DNA from: Escherichia phage vB_vPM_PD06 | Direction: 5' to 3' (one strand) | Sequence record: NC_052653.1 | Length of the DNA: 64,000 nucleotides | The notes under the pieces: generated by a model | What the model was told of the DNA's origin: nothing | Databases searched by the model: none | The model's input: the letters and a program-made list of their open reading frames with translations, nothing else | Translations under genes and position numbers: made by a program | Shown: positions 28,728 to 45,023 of the stretch, in pieces | Layout of the letters: each line of letters starts with the position of its first letter | Numbering within the stretch: position 1 is the stretch's first letter

Positions 28728-29585
28728 ATGACCCAAAAACTATATGAGGATGTAATCGGATTCCTCGAACAAACATCCGAAGAATTTACTCGTGAAAATG
28801 CAAACAAACCTGCAATGATTGTTAATACTCACCGAGACTTACTAGCAGGTATCCTAAGCAAGCACATGGCAATGACCCATATTTTACCGGAAGATCTGGC
28901 AGAATGGCATAAAAGCGGGTATGGTCACATTCACGATTTAGATTATTTACTCTCACCTCTAACTAACTGTTGCCTGGTAAATTACCAAGATATGCTTGAG
29001 AACGGTTTCCGTATTGGTAATGCACATATTGAAAAACCAAAATCTATCGGTGTAGCAACTACTGTCCTAACTCAAATTATTCAAGCAGTGGCTTCTAGCC
29101 AATATGGTGGACAAACTTGTGCACATATTGATACTGGGCTTAGTCAATACGTTAAAGCAAGTTTTAATAAAATCTATGCTGATGTTGGTGATTATGATAT
29201 TGCTATGCGTATGGTAGATAAACAGGTGTACGATGCAATGCAAACTTTAATCTACCAGGTGAACACCCTAATGAGTGTAAATGGTCAGTCACCTTTTATA
29301 ACAATTAGTTTAGGTTTGGATACCTCTGCTTTTGGTAGAATGATCACTAAAAACTACCTAATGGTGCACAAACAAGGTTTAGGGAAAGATAGGGTAACTC
29401 CTGTATTTCCTAAAGTTATCTTCTTCTTGGAAGATGGTGTTAACATGAAAGCTGGCGATCCAAACTATGATTTGAAGCAACTGGCAATGGAGTGTTGTGC
29501 TGAACGCATTTATCCTGATTTTATCTCTGTACCTTTAAACAAAGAAGTTACAGGATCTTCAGATGGTCGCGTCACAAGCATGGGT
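28728..29585 (+). CDS. nrdD: Anaerobic ribonucleoside-triphosphate reductase, exon 1
   Basis: ATG at 28728 after GGAGGA RBS; class III RNR N-terminal half; exon ends ...VTSMG at U29585. Confidence 0.8.
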
Positions 29586-29875
29586 AAACTATAACTGCTC
29601 ATGTAAAATCTGCCTAAACGGGGGAACTCTCAACGAGACAATCCCGTGCTAAACGTAACAGAACTCCCAACACAGAAGAAGGGTTATGATTATGAGTTCT
29701 GTTACGAAATGCCTAACGACTAGCTGTGATGAATGTAGCAGCGTAGGGTGTAAGCCTATGACACCCCAAATGGTAGACATGCTTTAAGCATGAAGATATA
29801 GTCTGATCTGCATGGTGACATGCAGCAGCACGTAATGGTGCGAGAGTGGCCTTGCGAACCACTTTGAACATAATG
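29586..29875 (+). mobile_element. Group I self-splicing intron (290 nt, no ORF) in nrdD
   Basis: P1 exon CAUGGGU pairs with internal guide GCUCAUG (29597-29603) with U-G at splice site; P7 GACUA (29718-29722) / UAGUC (29799-29803); S-like AAGATATAGTC; P9 hairpin CTGCATG-GTGA-CATGCAG (29808-29825); terminal G at 29875. Confidence 0.75.
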
Positions 29876-32471: not shown

Positions 32472-32497
32472 AAAGGAGGCGAAAGCCTCCTTTATTT
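32472..32497 (+). terminator. Intrinsic terminator (GNRA loop)
   Basis: GGAGGC-GAAA-GCCTCC then TTTATTT. Confidence 0.6.
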
Positions 32498-32511: not shown

Positions 32512-32703
32512 ATGGATCATTATTTTGTTTTTAAAGATAAAGTTGATACAGCAGGTGGTCACGTTGCTAAAAATGATCGTGACATTAAAGAAGTATTAGG
32601 AGATCTGATTAACATTTTAGAACAAAAAGAGTTGCTTTTAGATAAGGATATTGCTAGACTTCTTGGTGTGGGGACAAGTGATATACAAAGATTACCATTC
32701 TAA
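32512..32703 (+). CDS. Hypothetical protein (63 aa)
   Basis: Second in-frame ATG with GGAGGG RBS. Confidence 0.5.
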   Translation: MDHYFVFKDKVDTAGGHVAKNDRDIKEVLGDLINILEQKELLLDKDIARLLGVGTSDIQRLPF

Positions 32704-32714
32704 AGGGGAAGAAA

Positions 32715-32870
32715 ATGCTTACAGATGATGAATATAAAGCTATCCAGGAAAAACTAACGGAGCTTGAAACTCTTGCTGCAAATCTTAAAGATCAATCACA
32801 TGCTGGAAAGTTACTACGTCAAGAGATTAATAAAATTAAGCAGATGATATTCTTTTGGACGGAGGATTAA
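32715..32870 (+). CDS. Small hypothetical protein (51 aa; not in ORF track)
   Basis: ATG after AAAGGGGAAGAAA; MLTDDEYKAIQEKLTELETLAANLKDQ... Confidence 0.4.
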   Translation: MLTDDEYKAIQEKLTELETLAANLKDQSHAGKLLRQEINKIKQMIFFWTED

Positions 32871-32872
32871 AA

Positions 32873-33529
32873 ATGACTGTTAAGCATATTTCTTTTGATG
32901 TATGGAATACTCTTATTACTGCTAATCCTTTGTATGCAGAAGAACGCAACAAGGTTATTGCCGAGTATACCTCTTGTTCTGAGGCAGAAGCAGCTACCGT
33001 ATATAAAGAGGTAAAAACTCTCCTGGATTTAAAAGCAGAAAAAGGCGTTTGTGGAACGTCTAGGAATGCTTGGGAAACACTTTCTACTCGTTTGAACATT
33101 GATCTTGATAAGGTGGATGGATTAAAAAGAGACTGTTTAGCAATGTTTATAAAACATCCTCCAATATTGAACCCTGAGCTTTGCAAGAAGTTGGAAGAGC
33201 TAAGTTCAACCTATTCTTTGAGTATTAAGAGCAATACTAATTTTGTACCAGGTAGTTTCTTAGCTGTATATTCTGGCTTAACAAAATTACCATTTGACTT
33301 TATGCATTTTTCTGATGAGTTTTGCTTGTGTAAACCAGATCCTAGGTTTTTTAAACTCTCTTTTGATGAAATGGTAACGTTTGATCTCGCACCAGAGGAG
33401 ATTTTACACGTTGGAGATAGTTTGATCTATGATGGAAAAGCTGTTGACATAGGGATGAAGTTCTGTCATATTATTAATCCAGAAGATTTGTTGGCTAAAC
33501 TTAAAAAAGAGGAACTTATTAATGCGTAA
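32873..33529 (+). CDS. HAD-superfamily hydrolase (haloacid-dehalogenase-like)
   Basis: Motif I FDVWNTL (DxYxT-type variant); motif IV VGDSLIYDG. Confidence 0.55.
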   Translation: MTVKHISFDVWNTLITANPLYAEERNKVIAEYTSCSEAEAATVYKEVKTLLDLKAEKGVCGTSRNAWETLSTRLNIDLDKVDGLKRDCLAMFIKHPPILNPELCKKLEELSSTYSLSIKSNTNFVPGSFLAVYSGLTKLPFDFMHFSDEFCLCKPDPRFFKLSFDEMVTFDLAPEEILHVGDSLIYDGKAVDIGMKFCHIINPEDLLAKLKKEELINA

Positions 33530-34379
33530 TCAAATTCAACATTTTGCTAATACTTTTACTAACCTGAAGGAAGCAAAATTTAACATTGCAGATTATTCCA
33601 AACTAAAGTTTGGTAGTAACCAGGCAGCAAAAAGAATGGGACGCATTCTGGCTGAAAGTTTCTTTTCTAAATATGAAGAACGACTAGTAAATGAAAGTTT
33701 TGTTGTTATTCCATCTCCATACAACTATGTGAAAAATGCAGCTACAGTGTTATCTGAACATTTTGTAGATCACCTCAACTACCTAATCTCTATCAAAGGA
33801 GGTAAAGCAGTAGAGTGGGATATCGTTCATCGTAAAGTGAGTTATATCAATGATTATGGATTTCTTAGCAAAGAAGATCGTAAGGCTTTGATCGATGGTG
33901 ACACTTTCTCTATCAATCGTGATTTCTGGGGTAATAAAACTCTGATTTTCATTGATGATGTTAATATTACAGGAACACACGAAGAAAAACTTATTGAAAT
34001 TTTAGACAAAGAAGGTGTTGAAAACGATACGTTTTTCCTGTACTTTGCAAAGTATGAAGGTACAGAAGCCAACACCGAAGCTGCGCTTAACTTCAACTAT
34101 ATCAATAACTTGGCAGCTTTTATTAAAATGATTAAGCAAGAAACTGATGCTAAATGTTTGGTTCGTCCTATTAAGTATCTAATGAGTCAAAGCGAAGTTG
34201 ATTTTAAAATTGCACTTTCACAACTTCCTTTGTATTATGTAGAACAACTGTTCTTTGGTTGCCTTGCAGAAGGTTACAATAATATTGAAAAATACAAAGA
34301 GAACTTTGATTTCCTGCGTCAATTTTTTGAAAGCAACATTATCAACAAATCTAATGTTAAAGGGGATTATTATGTCTAA
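33522..34379 (+). CDS. Phosphoribosyltransferase-like protein
   Basis: PRTase signature TLIFIDDVNITGTHEE. Confidence 0.55.
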   Translation: MRNQIQHFANTFTNLKEAKFNIADYSKLKFGSNQAAKRMGRILAESFFSKYEERLVNESFVVIPSPYNYVKNAATVLSEHFVDHLNYLISIKGGKAVEWDIVHRKVSYINDYGFLSKEDRKALIDGDTFSINRDFWGNKTLIFIDDVNITGTHEEKLIEILDKEGVENDTFFLYFAKYEGTEANTEAALNFNYINNLAAFIKMIKQETDAKCLVRPIKYLMSQSEVDFKIALSQLPLYYVEQLFFGCLAEGYNNIEKYKENFDFLRQFFESNIINKSNVKGDYYV

Positions 34380-35088
34380 TAAAGTGACGACTTTCGGAGA
34401 TCCTATCACCAATATTACAGAAAAAGATTTTGGGCGTGTAGCAACAGATAAAGATGGTGTCTTAAGAATTCGTGTACAAGGCATTACAGCACAGGATGAA
34501 TATGCTGTGTATGTTTCAGGTCTTAATTATATTGATGATCGCATTACACAAAACTTTGCACTGATCGGTGGTGTAGAGAAAATGTACTGGGAAGATGAAA
34601 TTGTAACAAGTTATCCAGCAGGTATCATTGAGGTACACGGTGATCTTTTAGCAGCAGCCGAGAGAGGCGATATAGACGCTATAGCACACTGCTGTAACTG
34701 TTTTTGCACTATGGGTAGTGGTATTGCACCAAAAATTAAAAGCAAGTGGCCTGGTGCGTTTAAAGCAGATTGTGCCACTAAGCGTGGTGATTATAAAAAA
34801 TTAGGTACGTTTACTAAGTATACAGAAAACAATTTGACAATTTATAATTTATATGGACAATATGGTTATAGTCGTCGTGAGGAAGGTAAGCGTGACCTGA
34901 ATTATGAAGCTATCTACAATGCGTTAGATAGTATGGGAGACGATGTTGTATCTTCAGGCGGTAAAATTGTAGGTTTACCAATGCTTGGTTGTGGTTTGGC
35001 TGGAGGTTCTTGGAATATTGTAAAACTTATGATCGAAGAAACTCTAGTGAACAAAGGTTTAAATGTAATTGTTTACAAACTGAAATAA
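34372..35088 (+). CDS. Macro-domain (ADP-ribose binding/processing) protein
   Basis: GDIDAIAHCCNCFCTMGSGIA aligns with macro consensus DAIVNAANxxLxxGGGV. Confidence 0.55.
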   Translation: MSNKVTTFGDPITNITEKDFGRVATDKDGVLRIRVQGITAQDEYAVYVSGLNYIDDRITQNFALIGGVEKMYWEDEIVTSYPAGIIEVHGDLLAAAERGDIDAIAHCCNCFCTMGSGIAPKIKSKWPGAFKADCATKRGDYKKLGTFTKYTENNLTIYNLYGQYGYSRREEGKRDLNYEAIYNALDSMGDDVVSSGGKIVGLPMLGCGLAGGSWNIVKLMIEETLVNKGLNVIVYKLK

Positions 35089-35097
35089 GGAGAAAGT

Positions 35098-35304
35098 ATG
35101 GCAGGTGTTTTAGCAGTATTAGGTTGTTTTATTGTTGTATTCTTGATTGTGTTAATCCCTAGTTGGCTACTGCTTTTAGCATACAACTATATGATTGACA
35201 TTATCGGTTTAGACTGGCATCATGTTCCTGTAACGTTTTGGAGTGTAGTCTGTGTGACGTTCATTCTTGCGGTACTTCGTGGTATCTTTCAATCTAACAA
35301 ATAA
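35098..35304 (+). CDS. Small membrane protein (68 aa)
   Basis: AAGGAG RBS; two hydrophobic helices. Confidence 0.6.
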   Translation: MAGVLAVLGCFIVVFLIVLIPSWLLLLAYNYMIDIIGLDWHHVPVTFWSVVCVTFILAVLRGIFQSNK

Positions 35305-35318
35305 GAGAGGATCTTTAT

Positions 35319-35567
35319 ATGCGTAAAGTAAATGTTGAAGTGCTTGAAAAATTTAAAAACACTCGTGATTGTACTATTGGTAAGGTTTATGAGGCTATTC
35401 TCCTTGAAGATGGAGATATTGTTCCTGCCCCGTATCACGCCTTTAATGGTCAGGTTAGCAAAGTGGAAGGTGGTCTTGCTGTTTGCTTTATTGATGATGT
35501 AGGTGATGCTGTAGCTTTCCCTATCATTAACAAAGAAGATAAACTTAAAATTACAGAACTGAACTAG
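35319..35567 (+). CDS. Hypothetical protein (82 aa)
   Basis: Six-frame ORF. Confidence 0.6.
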   Translation: MRKVNVEVLEKFKNTRDCTIGKVYEAILLEDGDIVPAPYHAFNGQVSKVEGGLAVCFIDDVGDAVAFPIINKEDKLKITELN

Positions 35568-35644
35568 TTGACTTTCTTTAAAAACAGTTTATAGTATACG
35601 ACATATAGCGGAGGATTGTCCTCCGCATTAAAGAGGAGAAAAGA

Positions 35645-36622
35645 ATGCAACTGGGTTTCCCAATTATTGATGTGGTTGTTTTAGTGGGTATTTTAGTCTT
35701 GTCGATTTGTATTGATTTCTTCGGACACAGAGAAAACAAAGAAATCTCATTTAAATCTGCAATTGGCTGGTCAATTTTCTGGATTGGGGTATCATTAGCC
35801 TACTATGGTTTTGTATACTTCCAACACGGTGCTGATTTCGCGAGCTTGTTCTTGAGTGGGTATGTGTTGGAGAAATCTCTTTCTGTAGATAACTTAGTAG
35901 TATTTGTGGCAGTATTCGCAAGTTTTGGTATTAAAAGCACACACTTGCAACACAAGATTCTACTTTGGGGTATTGCAGGTGCGATTGTCTTCCGAGGTGT
36001 GTTTGTAGCAGTAGGCACTTACTTGTTGAGTTTGGGCTGGTATGTTAATATCTTCTTCGGTGCTGTCATCCTTTTCTGTGCAGCTAAAATGGTATTCGCT
36101 GGAGATAATGACGCAGAAGTTGATTACTCTAAACACTGGGCTACTCGCATTGTTCGTAAGCTGTTCCCTGTATCTGATCAGATGGATGGTGAGAAGTTCT
36201 TCACAATCAAAAATGGTGTTCGTGTAGCAACTCCTGCATTGGTTTGTGTGTTTGTAATGGAAATGGTTGACGTAATCTTTGCAGTAGACTCTGTTCCAGC
36301 AGTAATTGCAGTGACACAAGAACCTCTGCTTGTATTTTCTTCAATGCTGTGTGCAATTTTAGGTCTACGTGCTCTGTTCTTTGTCCTTAGTGTTGCACTG
36401 AAATATTTGGTTCATCTGGAGAAAGCAGTTATCGTAGTCCTGGTATTTGTGGGTGTAAAACTGATGTATCACCCGTTTGCAGAAACTCTGCACGCAAAAG
36501 TGAGTTTCCTGCCAGCACACATTGATCCGACGATCAGTATGTATATTGTGTTAGGTACTCTGGGGCTGGGTGTTATTGCAAGTTTAATCTTCCCTGAAAA
36601 AGAAGACCAGGCTGTTGCTTAA
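35645..36622 (+). CDS. TerC-family integral membrane protein
   Basis: Duplicated TerC motifs EKSLSVDNLVVF and VDVIFAVDSVPAVIAV; multiple TM helices. Confidence 0.75.
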   Translation: MQLGFPIIDVVVLVGILVLSICIDFFGHRENKEISFKSAIGWSIFWIGVSLAYYGFVYFQHGADFASLFLSGYVLEKSLSVDNLVVFVAVFASFGIKSTHLQHKILLWGIAGAIVFRGVFVAVGTYLLSLGWYVNIFFGAVILFCAAKMVFAGDNDAEVDYSKHWATRIVRKLFPVSDQMDGEKFFTIKNGVRVATPALVCVFVMEMVDVIFAVDSVPAVIAVTQEPLLVFSSMLCAILGLRALFFVLSVALKYLVHLEKAVIVVLVFVGVKLMYHPFAETLHAKVSFLPAHIDPTISMYIVLGTLGLGVIASLIFPEKEDQAVA

Positions 36623-36628
36623 TTCATT

Positions 36629-36650
36629 AAGCCCCTTCGGGGGCTTTGTT
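36629..36650 (+). terminator. Intrinsic terminator (UUCG loop)
   Basis: AAGCCCC-TTCG-GGGGCTT then TGTT. Confidence 0.55.
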
Positions 36651-36661
36651 GAGGTGATCTG

Positions 36662-36868
36662 ATGGTGGTTTTACGTGTTCTTTGGATTCTGTTTGAAAAT
36701 ATTTGTTTTGCTTTAGGGTTATTTTGTTTGATTTTTATCTTGACAACATACATTGATAACCATACAATTACTATCAACAGGAACGGAGAACAGATGTATT
36801 GTTTCTCTAGGGATTTTAAAAATTGTGTCGAGACTTTAAATGAGAGGGTTACAAATGAAAAACATTAA
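36662..36868 (+). CDS. Small membrane protein (68 aa)
   Basis: GAGGTG RBS; hydrophobic N-terminus. Confidence 0.5.
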   Translation: MVVLRVLWILFENICFALGLFCLIFILTTYIDNHTITINRNGEQMYCFSRDFKNCVETLNERVTNEKH

Positions 36869-37445
36869 ATCTTTTATTGTTGCAGTTGTTTTAGGTAGTG
36901 CATTGCTGGTAGGTTGTGATGATTCTGAAAATGTACAAAACCAACGTTACCAACAAACACCAAATCAGATGGTAGATGAACAATATGTAAATCAACCTGC
37001 ACCTCAAGTTGTTCAAGCAGCACCTGCACAACCTTCAACAGTTGTTGTGCAAGGAGGCGGTAGTGGTTCTTCTGGTGTAGGTGAATTTGCTACAGGTATG
37101 CTTCTTGGTCATATGTTGAGTGGTAATAGTGGCGGTGGTGGTTATAGAGATGGCGGTAGCAATACAACAATTATTAATAACAACGCTGCTCCTACAACTA
37201 ACAGTAAATCATATACAACACAAAAGCATAGTTTTTATGATAAACAAGGGAATACATATACAACAACTAAACAAAACACAATTAAGCAGCAAAGTGTACA
37301 AACGTATTCACGCCCATCAACAACAAAAGTGAATAGTGATTACTCTGCTCGTAAGTCTTACTCAAGCCCTATTAGCTCTTATAGTAAGTCTTCGAAAAGT
37401 TATTCTTCGTCGAAACGTAGTTTTAGTAGCTCACGTCGTCGTTAA
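36855..37445 (+). CDS. Lipoprotein, Gly/Ser-rich (196 aa)
   Basis: MKNIKSFIVAVVLGSALLVGC with lipobox LVGC. Confidence 0.6.
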   Translation: MKNIKSFIVAVVLGSALLVGCDDSENVQNQRYQQTPNQMVDEQYVNQPAPQVVQAAPAQPSTVVVQGGGSGSSGVGEFATGMLLGHMLSGNSGGGGYRDGGSNTTIINNNAAPTTNSKSYTTQKHSFYDKQGNTYTTTKQNTIKQQSVQTYSRPSTTKVNSDYSARKSYSSPISSYSKSSKSYSSSKRSFSSSRRR

Positions 37446-37480
37446 TAATTTAATACAGATTAAATAAGAAGGAGAAACAG

Positions 37481-38332
37481 ATGAAACTAGAAGTTGGTAA
37501 AGTGTATCGCCTGGAAGGTTGGATCTTTAATCAAGAAATTCTTGAGAAGAATAAAGATGGTTTTGAGTTTGTTGGTACTACCAAAGAAAGTATGCACGAT
37601 GACGAATACTGTAAATTCGTTGGTAAAAATACAGGTCAAGAACAATTTTGCTTTAAAAGCGCAATCGGTGATTATGCTTCTGTAATGCCAACGCCAGAAA
37701 AAACTTCGAAACAATATACTGTCTTTGGTGTAAAACTTGAAGAGCTTGTAGAACACCCACGTTTTGAAGAGTTTAAGGTTGCTGCAATGTGCAAGCATTC
37801 TGAAATTAAGATACATAATTTGTTTGATTTAGAAGATCGGTTTGATATCTTTATGTATGATCGCAGGGGAAAGCATTTTGATGCAACGACTTCAAAATTT
37901 GCTGCAACAGAGGATATTAAAATCCTTGATGTTGATACCTTTCTTGAGAGTGTATCGTTTGTATTCATTCCTAAATACAAAAAACGTAGTGATCATAAAC
38001 GTGTGAAAGGAACTCCTCGTAAAAAACGTACTGTAAACAAAGCAACTTTGCACTTCACTTCTGGTGATAAATATACTCTCAAAGGGTTTGAAAGTGTTTT
38101 GTATGATGCGGGAACGGGTAATATCAAGTTTATCATTAAGGCAACCTACAAAGGTACGGTATTGCACGAAGAGGCTGTTACACTACCTGTATTCGATATC
38201 TCTCGTGTTGAGGTACGGGGTGTTAAAGAGTCCTTCGATCTGGATTTCTTAACCACTAATGCTACTGGTTATGTTAACCTGGAAGCAGATGGAGCATTTA
38301 TTACTACAAATTATTTAGATATGTTTGTTTAA
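37481..38332 (+). CDS. Hypothetical protein (283 aa)
   Basis: AAGGAG RBS. Confidence 0.65.
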   Translation: MKLEVGKVYRLEGWIFNQEILEKNKDGFEFVGTTKESMHDDEYCKFVGKNTGQEQFCFKSAIGDYASVMPTPEKTSKQYTVFGVKLEELVEHPRFEEFKVAAMCKHSEIKIHNLFDLEDRFDIFMYDRRGKHFDATTSKFAATEDIKILDVDTFLESVSFVFIPKYKKRSDHKRVKGTPRKKRTVNKATLHFTSGDKYTLKGFESVLYDAGTGNIKFIIKATYKGTVLHEEAVTLPVFDISRVEVRGVKESFDLDFLTTNATGYVNLEADGAFITTNYLDMFV

Positions 38333-38400
38333 TACTTAATTTGTGTTATGATGGTGGTACAGAGGTATCACCATCTACTAAAGAATATGGAGGAAATTGA

Positions 38401-39504
38401 ATGTCCAGTCCTTTTATCAGTGCCGTAAAAAGCAAACCGTCTGAAACGAGTGTATTCACGGCAACAACAGAAAAAAGTAAGTCTTTGTTTGCTCCAAGTG
38501 CTATGGATGCAAGCCCTGTATATGCCCCTGCTGTTGCACGACCTGTACAAATGCTGCCTCCAATGTCTCGTGAAGAGATTGAACAGGTTGGTGCTGATGC
38601 AGGACTTACTCTTCGTAACCTTAATGCGGAAGTGCTTAAACACCAGCGTTCATCTCAGGGAGATGAAATGAGTGAGCGTTTAACCGCACTTATTAAGCAA
38701 GCAAAGCAACTTGATCCTAATTCTATTAAACAATCTAAAGGTTTAGGTAAGCTAGTTAAGAAAGTATTAGGTATGAAAGAAGATTTGTTTGGAGAATTTG
38801 ACACCATCAATAATCGTATTGAAGGTTTGGTAAAGACACTCCAAACAGACTTGAAAAAAGAAGAAGATTCTTTACGATATCTGCAACGTTTAGAAGAGGC
38901 TATTGCAAAATATGCTCTTAGCTTAAACAGGGATATAGAGCTTCTAACAGCTACTTATGAAAAAGAAGAAGTTCACCTTAATACACTACCTGAAAATGAA
39001 GTAGAAGAGCGTCAACGTACTCGTGATACTATGGATCTGCTTGAAATTCGTATTGCAGACCTGAAAGCCTTGCGTTTACTGTGTGTTCAGATGGGGCCAC
39101 GTGTACAAAGTATGCAGAAAGTATCTGCAAGTTTGATGCGATCAGCCCGTAATATTGTGAATAATGTTATTCCTGCTTACTCTGCAAACTTTTCTATGTA
39201 TATTGAAAGTCTACGCCAGAAGAAAGCAGCCGATACACAGAACAATGTACTGAATGAATTTAATGCTGCTATTGCAATGGGTAGTGATCTGGCTGCACAA
39301 AACCAAATTGAAGCTACACAACTTGCTAATCGTCAAGTATTGGATATTGAGACATTACGTCGCGATCAAGAAAACTTAGTTAAAATGTTGGAAGAAACTA
39401 ATCGGATCAACACTGAAGCCCGTGCTGCTCGTATTGATTACATTCAAGAAGTGCAATCTCTTGAAGATGGTATGATTCAAACTGTTAAACGTGGTCTACT
39501 TTAA
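38401..39504 (+). CDS. TelA-like (toxic anion resistance family) coiled-coil protein
   Basis: About 367 aa, extended coiled-coil, size and pattern resemble TelA/KlaA; GGAGG RBS. Confidence 0.45.
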   Translation: MSSPFISAVKSKPSETSVFTATTEKSKSLFAPSAMDASPVYAPAVARPVQMLPPMSREEIEQVGADAGLTLRNLNAEVLKHQRSSQGDEMSERLTALIKQAKQLDPNSIKQSKGLGKLVKKVLGMKEDLFGEFDTINNRIEGLVKTLQTDLKKEEDSLRYLQRLEEAIAKYALSLNRDIELLTATYEKEEVHLNTLPENEVEERQRTRDTMDLLEIRIADLKALRLLCVQMGPRVQSMQKVSASLMRSARNIVNNVIPAYSANFSMYIESLRQKKAADTQNNVLNEFNAAIAMGSDLAAQNQIEATQLANRQVLDIETLRRDQENLVKMLEETNRINTEARAARIDYIQEVQSLEDGMIQTVKRGLL

Positions 39505-39517
39505 GGAGAAATATATT

Positions 39518-39724
39518 ATGAATATTAAAATTTACAAACTGTCTGGTTCTATGATCGCTGTCCAGTACGACAATGAAGATCGTTATGTTCTCCTCCAGGA
39601 TGCTTGGTTAGATGATCCTAATGTATTTACTGTCCTGCGAGAACTACGTTCTGTCTATACCTATTCTTCTAAAGATGGTTTTGATAGTTCAACGATGGAT
39701 TTGGTAAAAGAGGAGAATGTGTAA
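39518..39724 (+). CDS. Hypothetical protein (68 aa)
   Basis: AAGGAG RBS. Confidence 0.55.
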   Translation: MNIKIYKLSGSMIAVQYDNEDRYVLLQDAWLDDPNVFTVLRELRSVYTYSSKDGFDSSTMDLVKEENV

Positions 39725-39927
39725 TGAATAAAGATATTCACTTAACTCGTGAAGAATTACAAACCATTATGGAAGATGCTTTCATTGATGGTTGGAAACA
39801 ATGTCAAGAGTCAAATTGGTATGATGCCGAAAACTTTTTGTATTATCATATGACTGCACCTGTAGACGAGCCAACACATTCTGAAACAACTTTGGCCTTA
39901 ATTGATCTTAAGGCTGGTGTATTTTAG
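39724..39927 (+). CDS. Hypothetical protein (67 aa)
   Basis: Start overlaps upstream stop. Confidence 0.55.
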   Translation: MNKDIHLTREELQTIMEDAFIDGWKQCQESNWYDAENFLYYHMTAPVDEPTHSETTLALIDLKAGVF

Positions 39928-40011
39928 TTGTAACTATCTCTTTAAACGAGTTACAAAAGATCACCAGAGAGGCTTTCTATTTAGGCTGGAGGGCAGGTAA
40001 AGGAGAAGACA

Positions 40012-40281
40012 GTGCTTAAATTTAATATCAAAGACGATAAATCAGATGAACCTAAATGTTTTGGAGAACTTGACGCAGGTGATACATTCGTATATTATGT
40101 TGCGTATCAAGATTCTGGTTTAGATACGTTCAGAAACTTAGTGTTTATTAAAGTTAATACAAACCAAGCAATGTGTCTGAACGGTTCACAAAGAGGTCAA
40201 CTTAGCTGTATTTCATATGATACAGAAATGGTAGAAGTGGATTTAGAAGTTACTAACATTACACTCAGAAAGGAGAAATAA
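40012..40281 (+). CDS. Hypothetical protein (89 aa; GTG start)
   Basis: GTG after AAAGGAGAAGACA. Confidence 0.55.
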   Translation: MLKFNIKDDKSDEPKCFGELDAGDTFVYYVAYQDSGLDTFRNLVFIKVNTNQAMCLNGSQRGQLSCISYDTEMVEVDLEVTNITLRKEK

Positions 40282-40282
40282 T

Positions 40283-41077
40283 ATGTCCAATAAAATCAGT
40301 CTTAAAAAACGTCAAGAAACTCTTACTGTATCTCTGCGTAAGAAAAAGATTAACGATGTTGTTCTTCGTGTCGGTAGCGCCTTAGATATTTCGGGTAGTA
40401 TGTGTGAGCTGTATCGTGATGGCACTGTTAGTGATTTTGTAGGTAAACTGCTGCCGTTTGGTATGAAGTTTGATGACAATGCACAGATTGACATGTGGGC
40501 TTTCAATAGTTCTTCTTTTGAACTGCCTCCTGCAACGGCTGATGTGTATGATGATTATGTCGGCTCTTGCATGTCTAATGTTTGCATCAACGGTGGTACT
40601 GCTTATGCTCCAGTAATGCAAGAGATCTATGATACATACTTCGGTAGTGTACCTATGAAAAATATTACACGCGAAGTCGTTGAGTATGAAGAAGTCCCGG
40701 CTAAGGGTTTCCTTGCTAAACTAACTGGTAAAAAAGAACTTGTAGAAGTAACACGTACTATTGTAGAACAGGTTGTAGATACTGATGCACAAGTTGATCG
40801 TACTCCTGCAATGATTTTCTTCCAAACTGACGGGGAAAACATGGATACTTCAGCAGTACGTAGCTTACTGAACAAACACCGCAATACGCCTGTTTACTGG
40901 TTTATGGTTGGTGTAGGTAATGCAAACTTTAAATTCCTGAAAGACTTGGCAAAAGAGTACGATAATGTTGATTTTATCGGTATTGCAGATTTGTCCTTGT
41001 CTGATGAAGAACTTTACGATAAACTGTTATCCGAAGAGTTTGGTGAGTGGGTTAAAAAATTCGGAGCAAAAGCGTAA
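40283..41077 (+). CDS. vWA-domain protein (TerY-like) with TerD-like N-terminal strand
   Basis: MIDAS DISGSM, GGTAY, FFQTDGEN; N-terminus ISLKKRQETLTVSLRK. Confidence 0.6.
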   Translation: MSNKISLKKRQETLTVSLRKKKINDVVLRVGSALDISGSMCELYRDGTVSDFVGKLLPFGMKFDDNAQIDMWAFNSSSFELPPATADVYDDYVGSCMSNVCINGGTAYAPVMQEIYDTYFGSVPMKNITREVVEYEEVPAKGFLAKLTGKKELVEVTRTIVEQVVDTDAQVDRTPAMIFFQTDGENMDTSAVRSLLNKHRNTPVYWFMVGVGNANFKFLKDLAKEYDNVDFIGIADLSLSDEELYDKLLSEEFGEWVKKFGAKA

Positions 41078-41084
41078 AAAACGC

Positions 41085-41112
41085 TTGACTTTGTAGAAAA
41101 GATTAGTAAAAT
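41085..41112 (+). promoter_or_regulatory. Sigma70-type promoter
   Basis: TTGACT, 16-bp spacer, TAAAAT. Confidence 0.5.
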
Positions 41113-41149
41113 AGACAACGTAAATTAACAACAAAGGAGATAATAAATT

Positions 41150-41746
41150 ATGACTCAGAAAATTTCCCTGAAAAAAGGTTCTAGCGAAAAAGTTTCTCTG
41201 AAAAAGATCGCACCAGCACTGAAACGCATTCGTCTGGAATTCTCTTGGAAATCTAACGAAAAACTGGATCTGGATGTTAGTGCTCTGATTTGCCGACACA
41301 ATGCATCTGGTCTGCCGGAACTGTTGTCTCCTCGTCACCTGGTGTGCTACGCGCAGAAATTTGATCCTGAACGTTCTACTTTTGCAGGTGAAGATGTTCG
41401 TGATGGTGTAGGACAGATGGAGCAGATTGATGTTACACTGGATAATATCTCTGCTGAAGCACAGGAAATTGCATTCGTAATTACTATTGATGACGAAACG
41501 GGTAAGAAACGCCTTGGTCACGCTACCGAAGGTTTCCTTAAAATCTTCGATGATGAACGTAATGTTGAACTGCTGGACTTTGACTTCTTGGCTCCAGAAC
41601 TTGCAGGTAACACCATTTGCCACGTTGCCTCCCTGGTGCGAGAAGATAGCGAATGGAAACTGAAAGCGTATGGTGTAGGTAAAGCTGGGCTTGACATTTA
41701 CGATGTAGTTAAAGCGTTTGGCGCTGGCGACGATTGGTTCGAGTAA
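41150..41746 (+). CDS. TerD-domain protein
   Basis: MTQKISLKKGSSEKVSLKK...DLDVSAL...FVITIDD...WKLKAYGVG matches TerD layout; own promoter and terminator. Confidence 0.75.
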   Translation: MTQKISLKKGSSEKVSLKKIAPALKRIRLEFSWKSNEKLDLDVSALICRHNASGLPELLSPRHLVCYAQKFDPERSTFAGEDVRDGVGQMEQIDVTLDNISAEAQEIAFVITIDDETGKKRLGHATEGFLKIFDDERNVELLDFDFLAPELAGNTICHVASLVREDSEWKLKAYGVGKAGLDIYDVVKAFGAGDDWFE

Positions 41747-41767
41747 TACGTCAAGTAATAAATCATA

Positions 41768-41790
41768 GCGCCCTTCGGGGCGCATATTTT
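41768..41790 (+). terminator. Intrinsic terminator (UUCG loop)
   Basis: GCGCCC-TTCG-GGGCGC then ATATTTT. Confidence 0.6.
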
Positions 41791-41810
41791 AAATAAAAGA
41801 GGAGAAAACA

Positions 41811-42413
41811 ATGGGTATTACTTTAGAAGGTCAAAAACTTATTCGTAGCGGCAATTTTCTTGTAGATATTGACAACAATGAAGATTATGCTTTAGAAGTT
41901 AGTGATGTGCTGTTTGATGCTTTGCAGTCTGGTTTCAATTTTGAAGTTTATGAAGTAATCCGTGGAACTAAACTCAGAGAAACCCTTGGATCATCTAGTG
42001 ATGTTTATCCGGCAATCTGGCAATATTTCGGGTTGATGGAGGGTAAGACATATCTTACTGATAGTTATTCTGAAGATGTTGTTTATCTTGATATGGAAGA
42101 GTTTCGTCGTCTGTTCAAAAGTGAAGAAAATGAAGAAGAGGGTGAACTTTTTGAAGGAATTACTCTCGAAGGTAATGTTGAAATTGTGTACAAAGCAGGA
42201 AAAACATTCCACCTACGCGAAAACGGTAAAGCAAAAGTTGATTTTGTAAACAAGACAGTGACAACTGAACATAATTATCTTAAAGATGGTCAACCAGCTT
42301 TTGAGCGTGTAAAAATTAAATTTAAAGTGTTGTCTGCACTAGTTACGGATCAAGAACGTATTGATTTTGTAGAAGATGGTGTAGTAACTCATACAAAGGT
42401 TTACAATATCTAA
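41811..42413 (+). CDS. Hypothetical protein (200 aa), possibly Ter-module associated
   Basis: GAGGAG RBS; adjacent to TerD gene. Confidence 0.6.
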   Translation: MGITLEGQKLIRSGNFLVDIDNNEDYALEVSDVLFDALQSGFNFEVYEVIRGTKLRETLGSSSDVYPAIWQYFGLMEGKTYLTDSYSEDVVYLDMEEFRRLFKSEENEEEGELFEGITLEGNVEIVYKAGKTFHLRENGKAKVDFVNKTVTTEHNYLKDGQPAFERVKIKFKVLSALVTDQERIDFVEDGVVTHTKVYNI

Positions 42414-42423
42414 CAGAGTGTAA

Positions 42424-42442
42424 GAGGGGGATAATCCCCCTC
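42424..42442 (+). other. GC hairpin without U-tract
   Basis: GAGGGGG-ATAAT-CCCCCTC. Confidence 0.3.
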
Positions 42443-42505
42443 CACTTGCAAAATAGCCTCTTCTGTGTTACAATAAAAGTTCGTTTAACAAAATAGGAGG
42501 CAAGT

Positions 42506-43015
42506 TTGTCAATAAAAACCTTTGTCGCAATTGCGTTACTATCCTTAACTGCTTTTACATTTACACCTGTTGTGGCGCAAGCCGAAGCTGCAAACGTAAA
42601 AACTGCTAAAGTAGTTCACAAGTGTACAAAGCGTGATAGTAAAGAAAATCTATTAGCTTGTGCAATCTATGCAGAAAGTCGTAATCAAGGAAAGCGCGGT
42701 ATGTCTGCTGTTGGTAATGTAGTATTGAATAGGGCTAGAGATTCATATTTCCCTGATACTATAAAAGAAGTTTTGTTTCAGAAAGGACAATTCTCTTACA
42801 CGAAGACATTCAACGTTATGGAACACGATAAGTGGAAGGAAGCTAAGGCTATAGCAGAACGTCTACTTTATCTCGATAACCATTTTCCAGAACTACGAAT
42901 TGCATTAGATATTACAAAAGGAGCATTATACTTTAAAAAATCTACAATAAGAGCACACTGGGAAAAAGATATGGTTCTAGTGTACCGCTACAAAGAACAT
43001 CAATTCTATCGCTAA
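42506..43015 (+). CDS. Secreted cell-wall hydrolase (SleB-like); candidate endolysin
   Basis: TTG start after AGGAGG; signal peptide; LACAIYAESRNQGKRGMSAVGNVVLNRA...QKGQFS. Confidence 0.55.
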   Translation: MSIKTFVAIALLSLTAFTFTPVVAQAEAANVKTAKVVHKCTKRDSKENLLACAIYAESRNQGKRGMSAVGNVVLNRARDSYFPDTIKEVLFQKGQFSYTKTFNVMEHDKWKEAKAIAERLLYLDNHFPELRIALDITKGALYFKKSTIRAHWEKDMVLVYRYKEHQFYR

Positions 43016-44336: not shown

Positions 44337-45023
44337 TTGGAAAATACAAAAATTGGTGTTGGTGTTATTACTGTAGGTAAGCGTCCTCTTAAAGATTATC
44401 TTGTGACTGATCCTAATGCTACTTTTGTTGTGCAGTATGATCGGGAACGAAAAGGTGTTGCATATGCCCGTAATGAACTGATGAAAAAGTTTTATGATGA
44501 AGGGTATGATTACTGGTTTATTTTTGATGATGATTGCTATCCGGTTGTGCCAGGTTGGGAAACATATTTTGTAAAACAGGCTAAGGAAAATGGTTGGGAT
44601 TTCTTTGGTATGCCTGAATATTTTAAAGATAAAGTAAAAGGTATTGAGGGTGAAGTGGTTATTTGGGAACTAGGTATGTGTCAGTTTGGTATGTATTCCC
44701 GTGCAGTTATTGAGAAAGCTGGCTATTTCCGCTCATACACCCACGGTTATGGATATGAAGATGCAGAGTGGATTCAGCGCGTTCCACTGGCAGGTTTGAA
44801 CCGAGGTATTCAGGGCGTACCATGTCCTATTCGAATTATGGCGTTTATCCATCCTGACGATGTGTTTGGAGATAATCCTTTACCTTTTGCGAATCTGTCA
44901 AAAGAAGAGAAAGAACAGGGGATTGGTGTAAACTGGGAACAATATAAACAATCACTGGAGGATCTTCGCAATGGTAAAACTTTTATCTCTTATGAGGAGG
45001 CTCAAAAATATGGTAAGTGCTAA
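44337..45023 (+). CDS. Glycosyltransferase, GT-A fold (GT2-like)
   Basis: TTG start after AAGGAG; GVAYARNELMK and FIFDDDCYP. Confidence 0.55.
   Translation: MENTKIGVGVITVGKRPLKDYLVTDPNATFVVQYDRERKGVAYARNELMKKFYDEGYDYWFIFDDDCYPVVPGWETYFVKQAKENGWDFFGMPEYFKDKVKGIEGEVVIWELGMCQFGMYSRAVIEKAGYFRSYTHGYGYEDAEWIQRVPLAGLNRGIQGVPCPIRIMAFIHPDDVFGDNPLPFANLSKEEKEQGIGVNWEQYKQSLEDLRNGKTFISYEEAQKYGKC

What the first reader, a model, noticed from the sequence alone, without database searches (positions are those of the whole stretch)
32873..42413. Phage-borne Ter-like module: HAD + PRTase + macro + TerC + TelA-like + vWA(TerY-like) + TerD
About 9.5 kb of co-directional genes bounded by terminators encode a HAD-type hydrolase, a phosphoribosyltransferase, a macro-domain protein, a TerC-family membrane protein, a lipoprotein, a TelA-like coiled-coil protein, a vWA (TerY-like) protein and a TerD-domain protein with its own promoter (41085) and terminator (41768). 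In bacteria TerD/TerC/TelA/TerY co-occur with PRTase/HAD genes in tellurite-resistance-type stress systems proposed to make a nucleoside-like metabolite. Finding the set together in a lytic phage, fused to an ADP-ribose-handling macro domain, suggests a phage-carried metabolite or ADP-ribose pathway, possibly a counter-defence or host-manipulation system. The function is unknown.
Basis: partly seen in the sequence, partly recalled or inferred. Interest (0 to 1): 0.85.

Follow-up and report, generated by a model that had tools for sequence, protein, structure and literature searches.

The report
Phage-borne Ter stress system plus macrodomain
A phi92-like E. coli phage carries a compact copy of the bacterial "tellurite-resistance" (Ter) membrane-stress system with its two-enzyme small-molecule unit. 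This kind of module is already described in phages but has never been tested, and the neighbouring macrodomain gene is most likely a separate anti-DarT counter-defence gene.

Summary
All seven domain calls hold: PRTase_3 1e-41, TerC 1e-38, TelA 5e-34, vWA-TerF-like 1.5e-38, TerD 5e-28, Macro 3e-7, and HAD just under Pfam's cutoff but with intact family motifs.

The window is a phi92-like myophage (Justusliebigvirus, 99% identical to ECGD1). The gene set is syntenic in the sister genus Phapecoctavirus and under purifying selection.

HAD→PRTase_3 is a tight two-gene cassette. It sits beside TerC, TerD, vWA or TelA in shuffled orders in at least 7 other viral lineages and in an actinobacterial chromosome, so the Ter link is real.

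- The vWA is TerF-type, not TerY-type.
- The macro protein is not part of the pathway. It is a homologue of T4 Tk.4/AdfM (anti-DarTG2), found in about 2,900 phage genomes against 154 with the PRTase.
- Phage Ter modules, including ones with PRTase and HAD, were already described (Iyer et al. 2021 and several genome papers).

New details: the HAD has D-x-W instead of D-x-D, the TerD Ca²⁺ motif is degenerate, and there are separate σ70-like promoter units.

The function is untested. The most likely role is envelope protection and superinfection or colicin exclusion in the infected cell. Interest is moderate; this is a new member of a known kind.

The parts
32472..32493 (+). Terminator-like hairpin after the upstream AAA-ATPase gene. 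It is the probable 5' limit of the first transcription unit.
   Evidence: 9-bp stem, then ATTTAT; sequence.
32512..32870 (+). Two small ORFs (63-67 aa and 51 aa) of unknown function between the hairpin and the HAD gene. They are probably co-transcribed with it.
   Evidence: annotated in relatives; phrog_17780; no Pfam family. The first ORF is conserved in Phapecoctavirus.
32873..33529 (+). HAD-superfamily hydrolase with an atypical motif I, D-x-W (SFDVWNTL). Its stop overlaps the PRTase start.
   Evidence: Pfam 25.5 bits; PHROG 1.5e-119; NCBIfam HAD-IA hits. The alignment of 21 cassette HADs shows D-x-W/Y and intact motifs II-IV. The closest solved structure, 2om6, has the same DVWNTL.
33522..34379 (+). 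Type I phosphoribosyltransferase of the PRTase_3 (ComF-like) family, with an intact PRPP loop (LIFIDDVNITGTHE) and a C-terminal all-helical domain.
   Evidence: Pfam 1.1e-41; invariant D145 D146 T150 G151 H153 E154 in 62 homologues. The AF2 model has pLDDT 91.9. Foldseek hits HGXPRT, PyrR and ComF at prob 1.0. There is no solved sequence homologue.
34372..35088 (+). Macrodomain protein of the T4 Tk.4/AdfM - SCO6735 - BT1257 group, with an ~85-aa N-terminal extension found only in Justusliebigvirus. It is probably an independent anti-DarT2 (ADP-ribose eraser) gene.
   Evidence: Pfam Macro 2.8e-7; DarG models at 50 bits; PDB 5e3b 1.8e-15 and TARG1 2.8e-10. tblastn to T4 tk.4 gives 9e-10; alignment. 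The extension has no relatives outside the genus.
35098..35304 (+). 68-aa protein with two predicted transmembrane segments, conserved in Phapecoctavirus (60% identity).
   Evidence: phrog_16065, function unknown.
35319..35567 (+). 82-aa ORF of unknown function, specific to Justusliebigvirus.
35568..35626 (+). σ70-like promoter (TTGACT-16-TATAGT, 35568-35595) and a 5'-UTR hairpin (35608-35626) ahead of TerC.
   Evidence: A promoter-like site sits at the same place in Phapecoctavirus (L003 12554-12581). No Rfam riboswitch was found.
35645..36622 (+). TerC-family inner-membrane protein of the Alx subtype.
   Evidence: Pfam 1.2e-38; TIGR03718 322.8 bits against a cutoff of 246.4; multiple hydrophobic segments; 72% identical in Phapecoctavirus.
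36630..36645 (+). GC-rich hairpin (AGCCCC-TTCG-GGGGCT, then TTGTTG) right after the TerC stop.
   Evidence: Sequence. An equivalent terminator follows TerC in L003 (13611-13628).
36662..36868 (+). 68-aa ORF with an N-terminal transmembrane segment. It contains a strong σ70-like promoter (36740-36768, TTGACA-17-TACAAT, 11/12) for the next gene.
   Evidence: A promoter-like site sits at the equivalent place in L003 (14063-14091).
36840..37445 (+). Predicted inner-membrane lipoprotein (lipobox LVGC, then DD). The mature part is rich in S/Q/T/G/N and probably disordered.
   Evidence: phrog_21570; 36% identical in Phapecoctavirus; no Pfam family.
37481..38332 (+). 283-aa protein of unknown function. 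It is restricted to this phage lineage and under purifying selection.
   Evidence: No Pfam, NCBIfam or PADLOC family. Only 2 and 17 relatives were found in two large searches. Synonymous to nonsynonymous changes against PaulScherrer are 15:1.
38401..39504 (+). TelA-family protein covering the full-length domain.
   Evidence: Pfam 5.5e-34 over aa 57-362; PHROG 'tellurite resistance' 2.7e-136; 79% identical in Phapecoctavirus.
39491..39927 (+). Two small ORFs (77 and 67 aa) of unknown function. The second ends at the deletion junction at 39922/39923.
40012..40281 (+). 89-aa ORF immediately upstream of the vWA gene. A paralogue sits upstream of TerD in Phapecoctavirus.
   Evidence: phrog_11278.
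40283..41077 (+). vWA domain protein of the TerF-C-terminal type. The MIDAS residues are present (D-I-S-G-S, T, D), and there is an insertion in the middle.
   Evidence: Pfam PF10138 1.5e-38, matched in two stretches. The motif is read from the translation. 67% identical in Phapecoctavirus.
41085..41112 (+). σ70-like promoter (TTGACT-16-TAAAAT) for TerD.
   Evidence: In Phapecoctavirus the TerD unit has a 12/12 consensus promoter (L003 19278-19305).
41150..41746 (+). Single TerD-domain protein with a degenerate Ca²⁺-binding motif (GEDVRDGV..GQMEQ against the canonical GDNRTGEGDGDDES).
   Evidence: Pfam 5.1e-28; PDB 2kxt 8.6e-15; alignment with 15 other TerDs; 81% identical in Phapecoctavirus.
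41768..41783 (.). Intrinsic-terminator-like hairpin (GCGCCC-TTCG-GGGCGC) flanked by T-rich sequence on both strands.
41811..42413 (+). 200-aa protein of unknown function. It is absent from Phapecoctavirus, and its membership in the module is doubtful.
   Evidence: A hairpin without a T-tract follows at 42424-42442.

Best explanation
The region is a phage-borne copy of the bacterial Ter stress/defence system in reduced form, with an unrelated counter-defence gene lodged inside it.

Shown:
- A membrane-proximal set is present: Alx-type TerC, TelA, a TerF-type vWA protein with intact MIDAS residues, and one TerD.
- A translationally coupled enzyme pair is present: an HAD-fold hydrolase and a type I PRTase (PRTase_3) with an intact PRPP loop.
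- Both sets are conserved under purifying selection.
- They are found together, in shuffled gene orders, in many independent phage lineages and in bacteria.
- They are organised in several units with σ70-like promoters whose positions are kept between genera.
- They are embedded in the nucleotide-metabolism/replication gene block.

Inferred:
- The genes are transcribed by host RNA polymerase early to mid infection.
- The PRTase uses PRPP to ribosylate a small base-like molecule. The HAD partner processes the product, possibly not as a classical phosphatase, because its motif I is D-x-W.
- TerC, TelA, vWA and TerD assemble at the inner membrane as a metal-dependent complex.
- The net effect is to protect the infected cell's envelope and ion balance, and to exclude superinfecting phages and pore-forming colicins until programmed lysis. 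This mirrors the phage-inhibition and colicin-resistance phenotypes of plasmid ter operons.
- The macro protein is a separate AdfM-type ADP-ribosyl hydrolase that removes DarT2 marks from phage DNA. It complements the NADAR (AdfN-type, anti-DarT1) gene at 13072-13623.
For: - Domain identities.
- Phage identity: 99% to ECGD1 and other phi92-like phages.
- Synteny: conserved with Phapecoctavirus at 50-81% amino-acid identity.
- Cassette: HAD lies directly upstream of PRTase_3 in every locus but one of 48.
- Ter genes within 10 kb, in different orders: viral contigs L007, L034, L037, L039, L041, L042 and L046, and a Pedococcus chromosome with TelA-TerD-TerD-TerC-vWA-TerD-HAD-PRT-PRT.
- Co-occurrence where not adjacent: Rhizobium and Brevundimonas phages carry both sets at distant sites in the same genome, and in the Caulobacter phage group both sets are recorded. 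The organism breakdown of the 154 PRTase records nearly matches that of the 180 vWA records.
- Purifying selection: 154 synonymous to 37 nonsynonymous changes against PaulScherrer, with dN/dS 0.01-0.19.
- Catalytic motifs: intact PRPP loop, PRTase fold, MIDAS residues.
- Promoter and terminator positions shared with Phapecoctavirus.
- Bacterial ter phenotypes: phage inhibition and colicin resistance need terC, terD and terZ. A Klebsiella terC deletion gives larger plaques (PMC12054061; PMC8386662).
- The same functional proposal has been made for jumbo-phage Ter systems (PMC7824862).
- Macro: homologous to T4 Tk.4/AdfM, whose knockout sensitises T4 to DarTG2. Chimallivirus AdfM removes DarT2 marks.
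- NADAR gene in the window; its Bas60 homologue was reported to reverse DarTG1.
Against: - No experiment exists for any phage Ter module, so the function is entirely by analogy.
- The phage set lacks TerB, TerZ/A/E paralogues, and the ATP-grasp and other biosynthetic genes of full bacterial systems.
- The TerD Ca²⁺ motif is degenerate here.
- The HAD lacks the Asp+2 general acid, so 'phosphatase making a nucleoside' is uncertain.
- HAD-PRTase also occurs alone within 10 kb in about 9 viral lineages and on Rhizobium plasmids.
- Promoter and terminator motif counts are not above chance.
- The macro stays adjacent to the PRTase in two genera, so a link to the enzyme pair cannot be fully excluded.
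- The macro lacks the catalytic Lys of DarG/TARG1, although T4 AdfM lacks it too.
Confidence: 0.5

Rival explanations
1. HAD, PRTase and macro form one ADP-ribose/NAD-linked metabolite pathway that acts as counter-defence, for example by rebuilding or destroying a nucleotide signal. The Ter membrane proteins would be accessory.
For: - The three genes are contiguous in both Stephanstirmvirinae genera.
- Macro domains bind ADP-ribose derivatives.
- Phage NAD⁺-reconstitution pathways exist (abstract).
- In a Rhizobium phage, HAD-PRTase lies next to an NMNAT/Nudix gene.
Against: - The macro is absent next to HAD-PRTase in all 7 other Ter-linked viral lineages. It lies 6-8 kb away in two loci (one of those 7, plus XaC1, which has no Ter gene nearby).
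- It occurs in about 2,900 phage records that mostly lack the PRTase.
- Its T4 homologue has a defined, unrelated role against DarTG2.
- The known NARP pathways use other enzyme families.
Confidence: 0.12
2. The module is an auxiliary homeostasis gene set. Alx-type TerC exports Mn²⁺ or other metal ions, and TerD, vWA and TelA buffer Ca²⁺ or other metals. This would keep the infected cell metabolically competent under metal, oxidative or xenobiotic stress, with no role in excluding competitors.
For: - TerC matches the Alx subfamily above the curated cutoff.
- Alx is described as a Mn²⁺ exporter (title of PMC10197570).
- Klebsiella terC contributes to Zn/Mn resistance.
- Iyer et al. also mention xenobiotic resistance.
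Against: - It does not explain the tight link with a PRTase/HAD pair.
- The TerD Ca²⁺ motif is degenerate.
- A lytic phage with a short cycle gains little from metal resistance.
- No riboswitch of the alx type was found.
Confidence: 0.15
3. HAD-PRTase is a nucleotide-metabolism cassette used for base salvage or for making a modified nucleotide for phage DNA or RNA. It would only be co-located with Ter genes, not functionally linked to them.
For: - The module follows nrdD/nrdG and precedes replication genes.
- In other phages the cassette lies among PurA, DHFR, RNA ligase and NT5C genes.
- The closest folds are purine and pyrimidine PRTases.
Against: - The cassette recurs next to Ter genes in shuffled orders in phages and bacteria.
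- It co-occurs with vWA-TerF at the genome level.
- PRTase_3 is far from any salvage enzyme in sequence.
Confidence: 0.1
4. The module controls lysis timing. The membrane proteins stabilise the inner membrane so that the signal-peptide-bearing SleB-type endolysin encoded just downstream is not released prematurely.
For: - The endolysin gene (42506-43015; Pfam Hydrolase_2 5.8e-20), with an N-terminal signal-like sequence, directly follows the module in both genera and lies near it in L037.
- Several small membrane proteins sit inside the module.
Against: - Most other Ter-bearing phage loci show no endolysin nearby.
- No holin family hit was found for the small membrane proteins.
- The idea rests on adjacency only.
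Confidence: 0.08

Closest known systems
Bacterial Ter systems with the associated PRTase/HAD genes (terZABCDEF-type loci; Anantharaman, Iyer & Aravind 2012, as summarised in PMC7824862)
   Same: - It has TerC, TerD, a TerF-type vWA and TelA together with a HAD and a PRTase_3.
- The same HAD→PRTase order and the same D-x-W HAD motif occur in the Pedococcus chromosomal cluster L030.
   Different: - It is carried by a virulent phage.
- It has only one TerD.
- It has no TerB, no TerZ/A/E paralogues, and no ATP-grasp or other biosynthetic genes.
- Its TerD Ca²⁺ motif is degenerate.
- It has extra lineage-specific small membrane proteins, a lipoprotein and a 283-aa orphan protein.
Phage-borne Ter modules: Acinetobacter phage vB_AbaM_ME3, Caulobacter/Brevundimonas jumbo phages, ΦPsa374, φKp34
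   Same: - These are also lytic phages carrying terC, terD, terF(vWA) and telA.
- ME3 is reported with PRTase and HAD as well.
- They are proposed to act against superinfecting phages.
- They are hit directly by the window's TelA, vWA and PRTase.
   Different: - Here the module sits in a ~146-kb, non-jumbo E. coli myophage that is genetically tractable (BASEL Bas60-62).
- All parts are contiguous within 9.5 kb.
- ΦPsa374 and φKp34 are described without the HAD-PRTase pair.
T4 Tk.4 = AdfM and chimallivirus AdfM (anti-DarT factor, macrodomain); DarG antitoxin
   Same: - It has a macro fold.
- It shows direct sequence homology to T4 Tk.4 (E 9e-10, about 29-33% identity).
- It shares the NLY[GT]Q motif with T4 Tk.4.
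- It hits the DarG models.
   Different: - It has an ~85-aa N-terminal extension of unknown fold that is unique to Justusliebigvirus.
- It has no DarT-binding C-terminal domain.
- It lacks the catalytic Lys reported for DarG and PhiKZ AdfM.
- Its activity is untested.
TerY-P triad (PADLOC/Gao 2020 candidate defence system)
   Same: Both contain a vWA-domain protein with 'Ter' in the name.
   Different: - The vWA here is the TerF-C-terminal type (PF10138).
- There is no kinase or phosphatase partner.
- PADLOC gives no hit.

Membership tests
Ter system (membrane-associated core) | TerD-domain protein | tested here: met
   PF02342 5.1e-28; PDB TerD 2kxt 8.6e-15.
Ter system (membrane-associated core) | TerC-family integral membrane protein | tested here: met
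   PF03741 1.2e-38; TIGR03718 322.8 bits against a cutoff of 246.4.
Ter system (membrane-associated core) | TelA and a TerF-type vWA protein in the same neighbourhood | tested here: met
   PF05816 5.5e-34 and PF10138 1.5e-38. The MIDAS residues DxSxS/T/D are present in the translation.
Ter system (membrane-associated core) | Canonical TerD Ca²⁺-binding motif GDN(R/L)TG(E/A)GDGDDE (motif recalled from the TerD structure literature) | tested here: inconclusive
   The window has GEDVRDGV..GQMEQ, which is three residues shorter and has fewer acidic residues. Most other phage and bacterial TerDs in the alignment keep the motif. The DLD motif is kept.
Ter system (full terZABCDEF type) | TerB and multiple TerD paralogues (TerZ/A/E) | tested here: not met
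   All 18 ORFs from 32512 to 42413 were scanned with Pfam. There is one TerD and no TerB.
Ter system | Confers tellurite, phage and colicin resistance | not testable with these tools
   This needs expression or deletion experiments.
Ter-associated metabolite module | PRTase with a functional PRPP-binding loop, next to a HAD hydrolase | tested here: met
   PF15610 1.1e-41; invariant DDVxITGTHE; type I PRTase fold. HAD is adjacent in all loci but one.
Ter-associated metabolite module | Further biosynthetic enzymes (ATP-grasp, second PRTase and others) of complete bacterial clusters | tested here: not met
   There are no such Pfam hits in the region. Pedococcus L030 has two PRTases.
HAD phosphatases | Motif I D-x-D (nucleophile plus Asp+2 general acid/base) | tested here: not met
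   Motif I is D-V-W. Trp is at +2 in 20 of 21 cassette HADs and Tyr in one. Motifs II (SNT), III (K) and IV (GDxxxD) are kept. The same motif occurs in PDB 2om6.
AdfM / DarG-type macrodomain (DNA ADP-ribosyl hydrolase) | Macro fold with homology to a validated AdfM | tested here: met
   PF01661 2.8e-7; tblastn to T4 tk.4 gives 9e-10; alignment. The T4 tk.4 knockout is DarTG2-sensitive.
AdfM / DarG-type macrodomain (DNA ADP-ribosyl hydrolase) | Catalytic Lys (DarG K80 / TARG1 K84) | tested here: not met
   Gln is at this position and Ala is at TARG1 D125. T4 Tk.4/AdfM also has Gln, so this residue does not define the T4-type subgroup.
AdfM / DarG-type macrodomain (DNA ADP-ribosyl hydrolase) | Protects the phage against DarTG2 and removes ADP-ribose from thymidine in ssDNA | not testable with these tools
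   This needs a phage knockout and an enzyme assay.
TerY-P defence triad | TerY-type vWA with a Ser/Thr kinase and a PP2C phosphatase | tested here: not met
   No PADLOC hit was found for any of the ten main module proteins scanned (only the macro hit DarG, and u283 a weak Cas12g). The vWA is PF10138, TerF-type.

The most novel reading that the evidence does not exclude
The HAD(D-x-W)/PRTase_3 pair makes a PRPP-derived nucleoside-like small molecule inside the infected cell. That molecule gates a TerC-TelA-vWA-TerD complex at the inner membrane and closes the cell to later invaders (other phages, colicins). This would be a phage-run, small-molecule-controlled exclusion system, and it would also give the first mechanistic function for Ter systems in general.
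Probability: 0.2. Interest if true: 0.8.

Novelty: new member of a known kind. Interest (0 to 1): 0.45.

Why it matters
Ter operons have been known since the 1990s to give tellurite, phage and colicin resistance, yet their mechanism is still unknown. The predicted 'nucleoside-like metabolite' of the associated PRTase/HAD genes has never been identified.

A complete, compact version (six core genes in 9.5 kb) in a lytic E. coli phage with close relatives in a public laboratory collection (BASEL Bas60-62) would be a convenient system for testing both questions by deletion, expression and metabolomics.

The analysis also separates out the macro gene as a likely AdfM-type anti-DarT2 factor. Together with the NADAR gene elsewhere in the window, this predicts that these phages resist both DarTG types.

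It also flags that the Ter-associated HAD lacks the usual phosphatase general acid. This questions the standard 'phosphatase' assignment.

Tried and rejected
- A single-sequence AlphaFold run on the macro protein failed (pLDDT 36.6). The fold of the N-terminal extension therefore remains unknown.
- Searches for relatives of the 283-aa protein gave only 2 hits and 17 hits and no family, so I did not model it.
- PADLOC gave no Ter-type defence hit.
- Rfam found no alx-type or other riboswitch ahead of TerC.
- Sequence and profile searches of the PDB gave no solved relative of PRTase_3 beyond the PRPP loop.
- Foldseek confirms the PRTase fold but does not reveal the substrate.
- I checked whether the module could be the newly described NARP3 NAD⁺ pathway. 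It is not, because NARP3 is PnuC plus NadR.
- A paralogy search among module proteins and the macro N-terminus found nothing.
- The Rhizobium plasmid context of HAD-PRTase was uninformative.
- Anantharaman et al. 2012 and the phi92 genome paper were not held in the library. Statements about them rest on how later papers summarise them.
- I did not check whether Xanthomonas phage XaC1 has Ter genes elsewhere in its genome.

Full report
**What is in the sequence.** The + strand between 32.5 and 42.4 kb carries 18 close-packed ORFs.
- PRTase_3: 1.1e-41
- TerC: 1.2e-38
- TelA: 5.5e-34
- vWA-TerF-like: 1.5e-38
- TerD: 5.1e-28
- Macro: 2.8e-7

The HAD hit (25.5 bits) is 0.9 bit under Pfam's cutoff. 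It is supported by a PHROG 'hydrolase' family at 1.5e-119, by NCBIfam HAD-IA models and by conserved HAD motifs. TerC scores above the curated cutoff of the Alx subfamily. The vWA protein is of the TerF-C-terminal type, not TerY, and PADLOC finds no TerY-P or other Ter-type defence component. The remaining ORFs have no Pfam family. These are two small membrane proteins, a lipoprotein with lipobox LVGC followed by DD, a 283-aa and a 200-aa protein, and several proteins of 50-90 aa. All of them match phage-only PHROGs of unknown function.

**Where it comes from.** The region is 97.6-99.2% identical over its full length to the 30 best-listed of some 50 phi92-like E. coli myophages of genus Justusliebigvirus, subfamily Stephanstirmvirinae. 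These include ECGD1, PHB05 and BASEL phage PaulScherrer/Bas60. In their GenBank records the genes are already labelled tellurite resistance, TerC, phosphoribosyltransferase, macrodomain, HAD and vWA. The module sits in a long co-directional block between the anaerobic ribonucleotide reductase genes and the endolysin, glycosyltransferase, primase/helicase and DNA polymerase genes.

**Is the linkage real?** The evidence comes from several sources:
- In the sister genus Phapecoctavirus the order is kept: HAD-PRTase-macro-2TM protein-TerC-...-lipoprotein-...-TelA-...-vWA-...-TerD-endolysin. Amino-acid identity is 50-81%.
- Against PaulScherrer the module shows 154 synonymous and 37 nonsynonymous differences, with dN/dS of 0.01-0.19 per gene, including the orphan proteins. 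The genes are therefore maintained by selection.
- I collected 48 loci around PRTase_3 homologues from GenBank phages, IMG/VR contigs, metagenomes and GTDB genomes and searched their ORFs with iterated profiles.
- A HAD gene lies immediately upstream of the PRTase in every locus but one. In the window the HAD stop overlaps the PRTase start.
- TerC, TerD, vWA-TerF and/or TelA lie within 10 kb, in different orders, in seven further viral lineages (L007, L034, L037, L039, L041, L042, L046).
- In Bacteroidota metagenome bins, TerD copies (L025, L026) or TerD plus TerC (L028) lie within 10 kb of the cassette; a Candidatus Peribacteria bin (L029) also has TerD nearby.
- A Pedococcus chromosome has TelA-TerD-TerD-TerC-vWA-TerD-HAD-PRT-PRT.
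- About nine viral lineages and the Rhizobiaceae replicons have HAD-PRTase alone within 10 kb.
- However, Rhizobium and Brevundimonas phages carry the vWA and/or TelA genes elsewhere in the same genome, and in the Caulobacter phage group both sets are recorded in related genomes.
- The organism breakdown of the 154 phage records with the PRTase almost matches that of the 180 with the vWA protein.

Neighbourhood retention despite shuffling, plus genome-level co-occurrence, is what a functional link predicts.

**The macro gene is a different matter.** Homologues occur in 2,907 phage records, but only 70 cover the full length. The gene is next to the PRTase only in Stephanstirmvirinae.
- The protein belongs to the TARG1/DarG/SCO6735/BT1257 class.
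- It is homologous to T4 Tk.4 (E 9e-10).
- A 2025 preprint shows that tk.4 is the single T4 gene needed on DarTG2-expressing hosts and names it adfM.
- A 2026 paper shows that chimallivirus AdfM removes DarT2 ADP-ribose marks from DNA.
- The window protein has Gln and Ala where TARG1 has the catalytic Lys84 and Asp125 (residue roles from my own knowledge; alignment). T4 Tk.4 has the same Gln within a shared NLY[GT]Q motif, so this does not argue against the assignment.
- The window also encodes a NADAR protein at 13072-13623 on the minus strand (3e-36). Its Bas60 homologue was reported as an AdfN that reverses DarTG1.

The simplest reading is that the macro gene is an independent anti-DarT2 factor that happens to sit inside the Ter module. 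Its ~85-aa N-terminal extension is confined to Justusliebigvirus and could not be modelled.

**Details of the Ter parts.**
- *PRTase.* It keeps the PRPP loop (LIFIDDVNITGTHE), which is invariant in 62 homologues. A confident model (pLDDT 91.9) has a type I PRTase core closest to 6-oxopurine PRTases, PyrR and H. pylori ComF, plus a C-terminal helical domain. No solved structure is related by sequence, so the substrate is unknown.
- *HAD.* The partner has the nucleophile Asp and motifs II-IV, but motif I reads D-x-W. Trp is at +2 in 20 of 21 cassette HADs, including the bacterial one, and Tyr in one. By established knowledge of the HAD superfamily, Asp+2 is the general acid/base of the phosphatases, and its absence is typical of dehalogenases and other non-phosphatase members. 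The usual label 'phosphatase' is therefore not secure. The closest solved protein, 2om6 from Pyrococcus, shares DVWNTL and has no demonstrated function.
- *TerD.* It aligns over its whole length with Klebsiella TerD. Its acidic Ca²⁺-binding stretch is shortened and partly neutralised, unlike most other phage TerDs.
- *vWA.* The MIDAS residues are present (translation).

**Transcription signals.** Counts of σ70-like promoters and intrinsic terminators are no higher than in shuffled sequence, so each site is only a prediction. The best intergenic sites lie just upstream of TerC (35568), the lipoprotein (36740, 11/12) and TerD (41085). Hairpins follow TerC (36630-36645) and TerD (41768-41783). 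Phapecoctavirus has promoter-like sites at the three equivalent places, including a 12/12 consensus before its TerD unit, and a terminator after TerC. This suggests several host-polymerase-driven units rather than one operon bounded by terminators.

**How it most likely works.** What is shown is gene content, motif integrity, selection and linkage. The rest is inferred from what is known of bacterial ter operons. [quoted passage not shown] It is also inferred from the Aravind group's model of Ter systems. My proposal has four steps:
- The module is expressed early to mid infection.
- The PRTase/HAD pair converts PRPP and an unknown base-like compound into a small ribosylated product.
- TerC with TelA, vWA and TerD forms a metal-dependent complex at the inner membrane.
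- The outcome is protection of the infected cell's envelope and exclusion of superinfecting phages and pore-forming colicins until lysis.

I put about 0.5 on this package. Identity as a Ter system is near certain, and the biological role is roughly even odds. The rivals are:
- a single HAD-PRTase-macro counter-defence pathway (0.12)
- metal homeostasis only (0.15)
- a nucleotide-metabolism cassette merely co-located with Ter genes (0.10)
- control of lysis timing for the signal-peptide SleB-type endolysin just downstream (0.08)

**Comparison with what is known, and novelty.**
- Iyer et al. 2021 described Ter systems in jumbo phages. They reported a 'relatively complete' one with PRTase and HAD in Acinetobacter phage ME3, mentioned 'certain other related smaller tailed phages', and proposed competition with superinfecting phages.
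- ΦPsa374 and φKp34 papers list terC, terD, terF and telA.
- A 2015 cocktail metagenome paper lists phi92 gp172, gp173 and gp178 as TerD/tellurite proteins.
- I found no paper that treats the phi92-like module as a unit or tests any phage Ter module.

The finding is therefore a new, well-preserved member of a known kind. This analysis adds the separation of the macro gene, the D-x-W HAD, the degenerate TerD motif, the two separable sub-modules and the multi-promoter layout. Its value lies in tractability: a compact Ter system in a culturable E. coli phage could make the long-open Ter mechanism testable.

Noticed in passing
window 39922/39923: A clean 468-bp deletion relative to PaulScherrer removes most of a 187-aa gene (phrog_14928, phi92 gp175 homologue). 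That gene is annotated in PaulScherrer and BME3, the 30 best-matching genomes all carry ~460 extra bp here, and a same-sized 186-aa CDS sits at the syntenic position in Phapecoctavirus. The upstream 67-aa ORF now ends in a new stop codon. This conserved module gene is therefore dispensable, at least in this isolate.
   Followed up: yes
window 29540-29825 (+): A group I intron (Rfam RF00028, 70.4 bits, E 8e-16) lies inside the anaerobic ribonucleotide reductase gene nrdD. The PaulScherrer nrdD is uninterrupted.
   Followed up: partly
window 13072-13623 (-): A NADAR-domain protein is present (Pfam 3.1e-36). Its Bas60 homologue ('YbiA-like N-glycosidase') was reported as AdfN, which reverses DarTG1. 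Together with the AdfM-like macro gene, the phage may carry erasers for both DarT types.
   Followed up: partly
window 32873-33529 and 20 related loci: The HAD partner of PRTase_3 has motif I D-x-W (Tyr once) instead of D-x-D, in phages and bacteria alike. PDB 2om6 (Pyrococcus, function unproven) shares DVWNTL. The 'phosphatase' assignment of Ter-associated HADs may be wrong.
   Followed up: partly
window 42506-43015 (+): The SleB-type cell-wall hydrolase (endolysin, Pfam Hydrolase_2 5.8e-20) has a signal-peptide-like N-terminus (...TPVVAQA/EA) and follows the Ter module in both genera. A σ70-like promoter with an extended -10 lies at 42446-42474.
   Followed up: no
GenBank MG065639, MG065645, MG065656, MG065689 (hits H13-H16): Four records named 'Campylobacter phage' (host C. 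jejuni) are 98% identical to this E. coli phage region over its full length. This is probably a host mislabel or contamination.
   Followed up: no
L010 (JAEZZU010000022.1, 'MAG: Proteobacteria bacterium'): A contig binned as a bacterial MAG carries HAD-PRTase-macro at 65% identity in Phapecoctavirus order. It is most likely a phage contig mis-binned into a genome.
   Followed up: no
window 44337-45023 (+): A glycosyltransferase downstream of the module gives a weak, sub-threshold hit to TET-associated glycosyltransferase (PF20691, 23.3 bits against a cutoff of 27.5). It may relate to the DNA or sugar modification genes noted for phi92-like phages.
   Followed up: no
window 35608-35626 (+): A 7-bp GC-rich hairpin lies in the short 5' UTR of TerC, between the predicted promoter and the ribosome-binding site. 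It matches no Rfam family.
   Followed up: no
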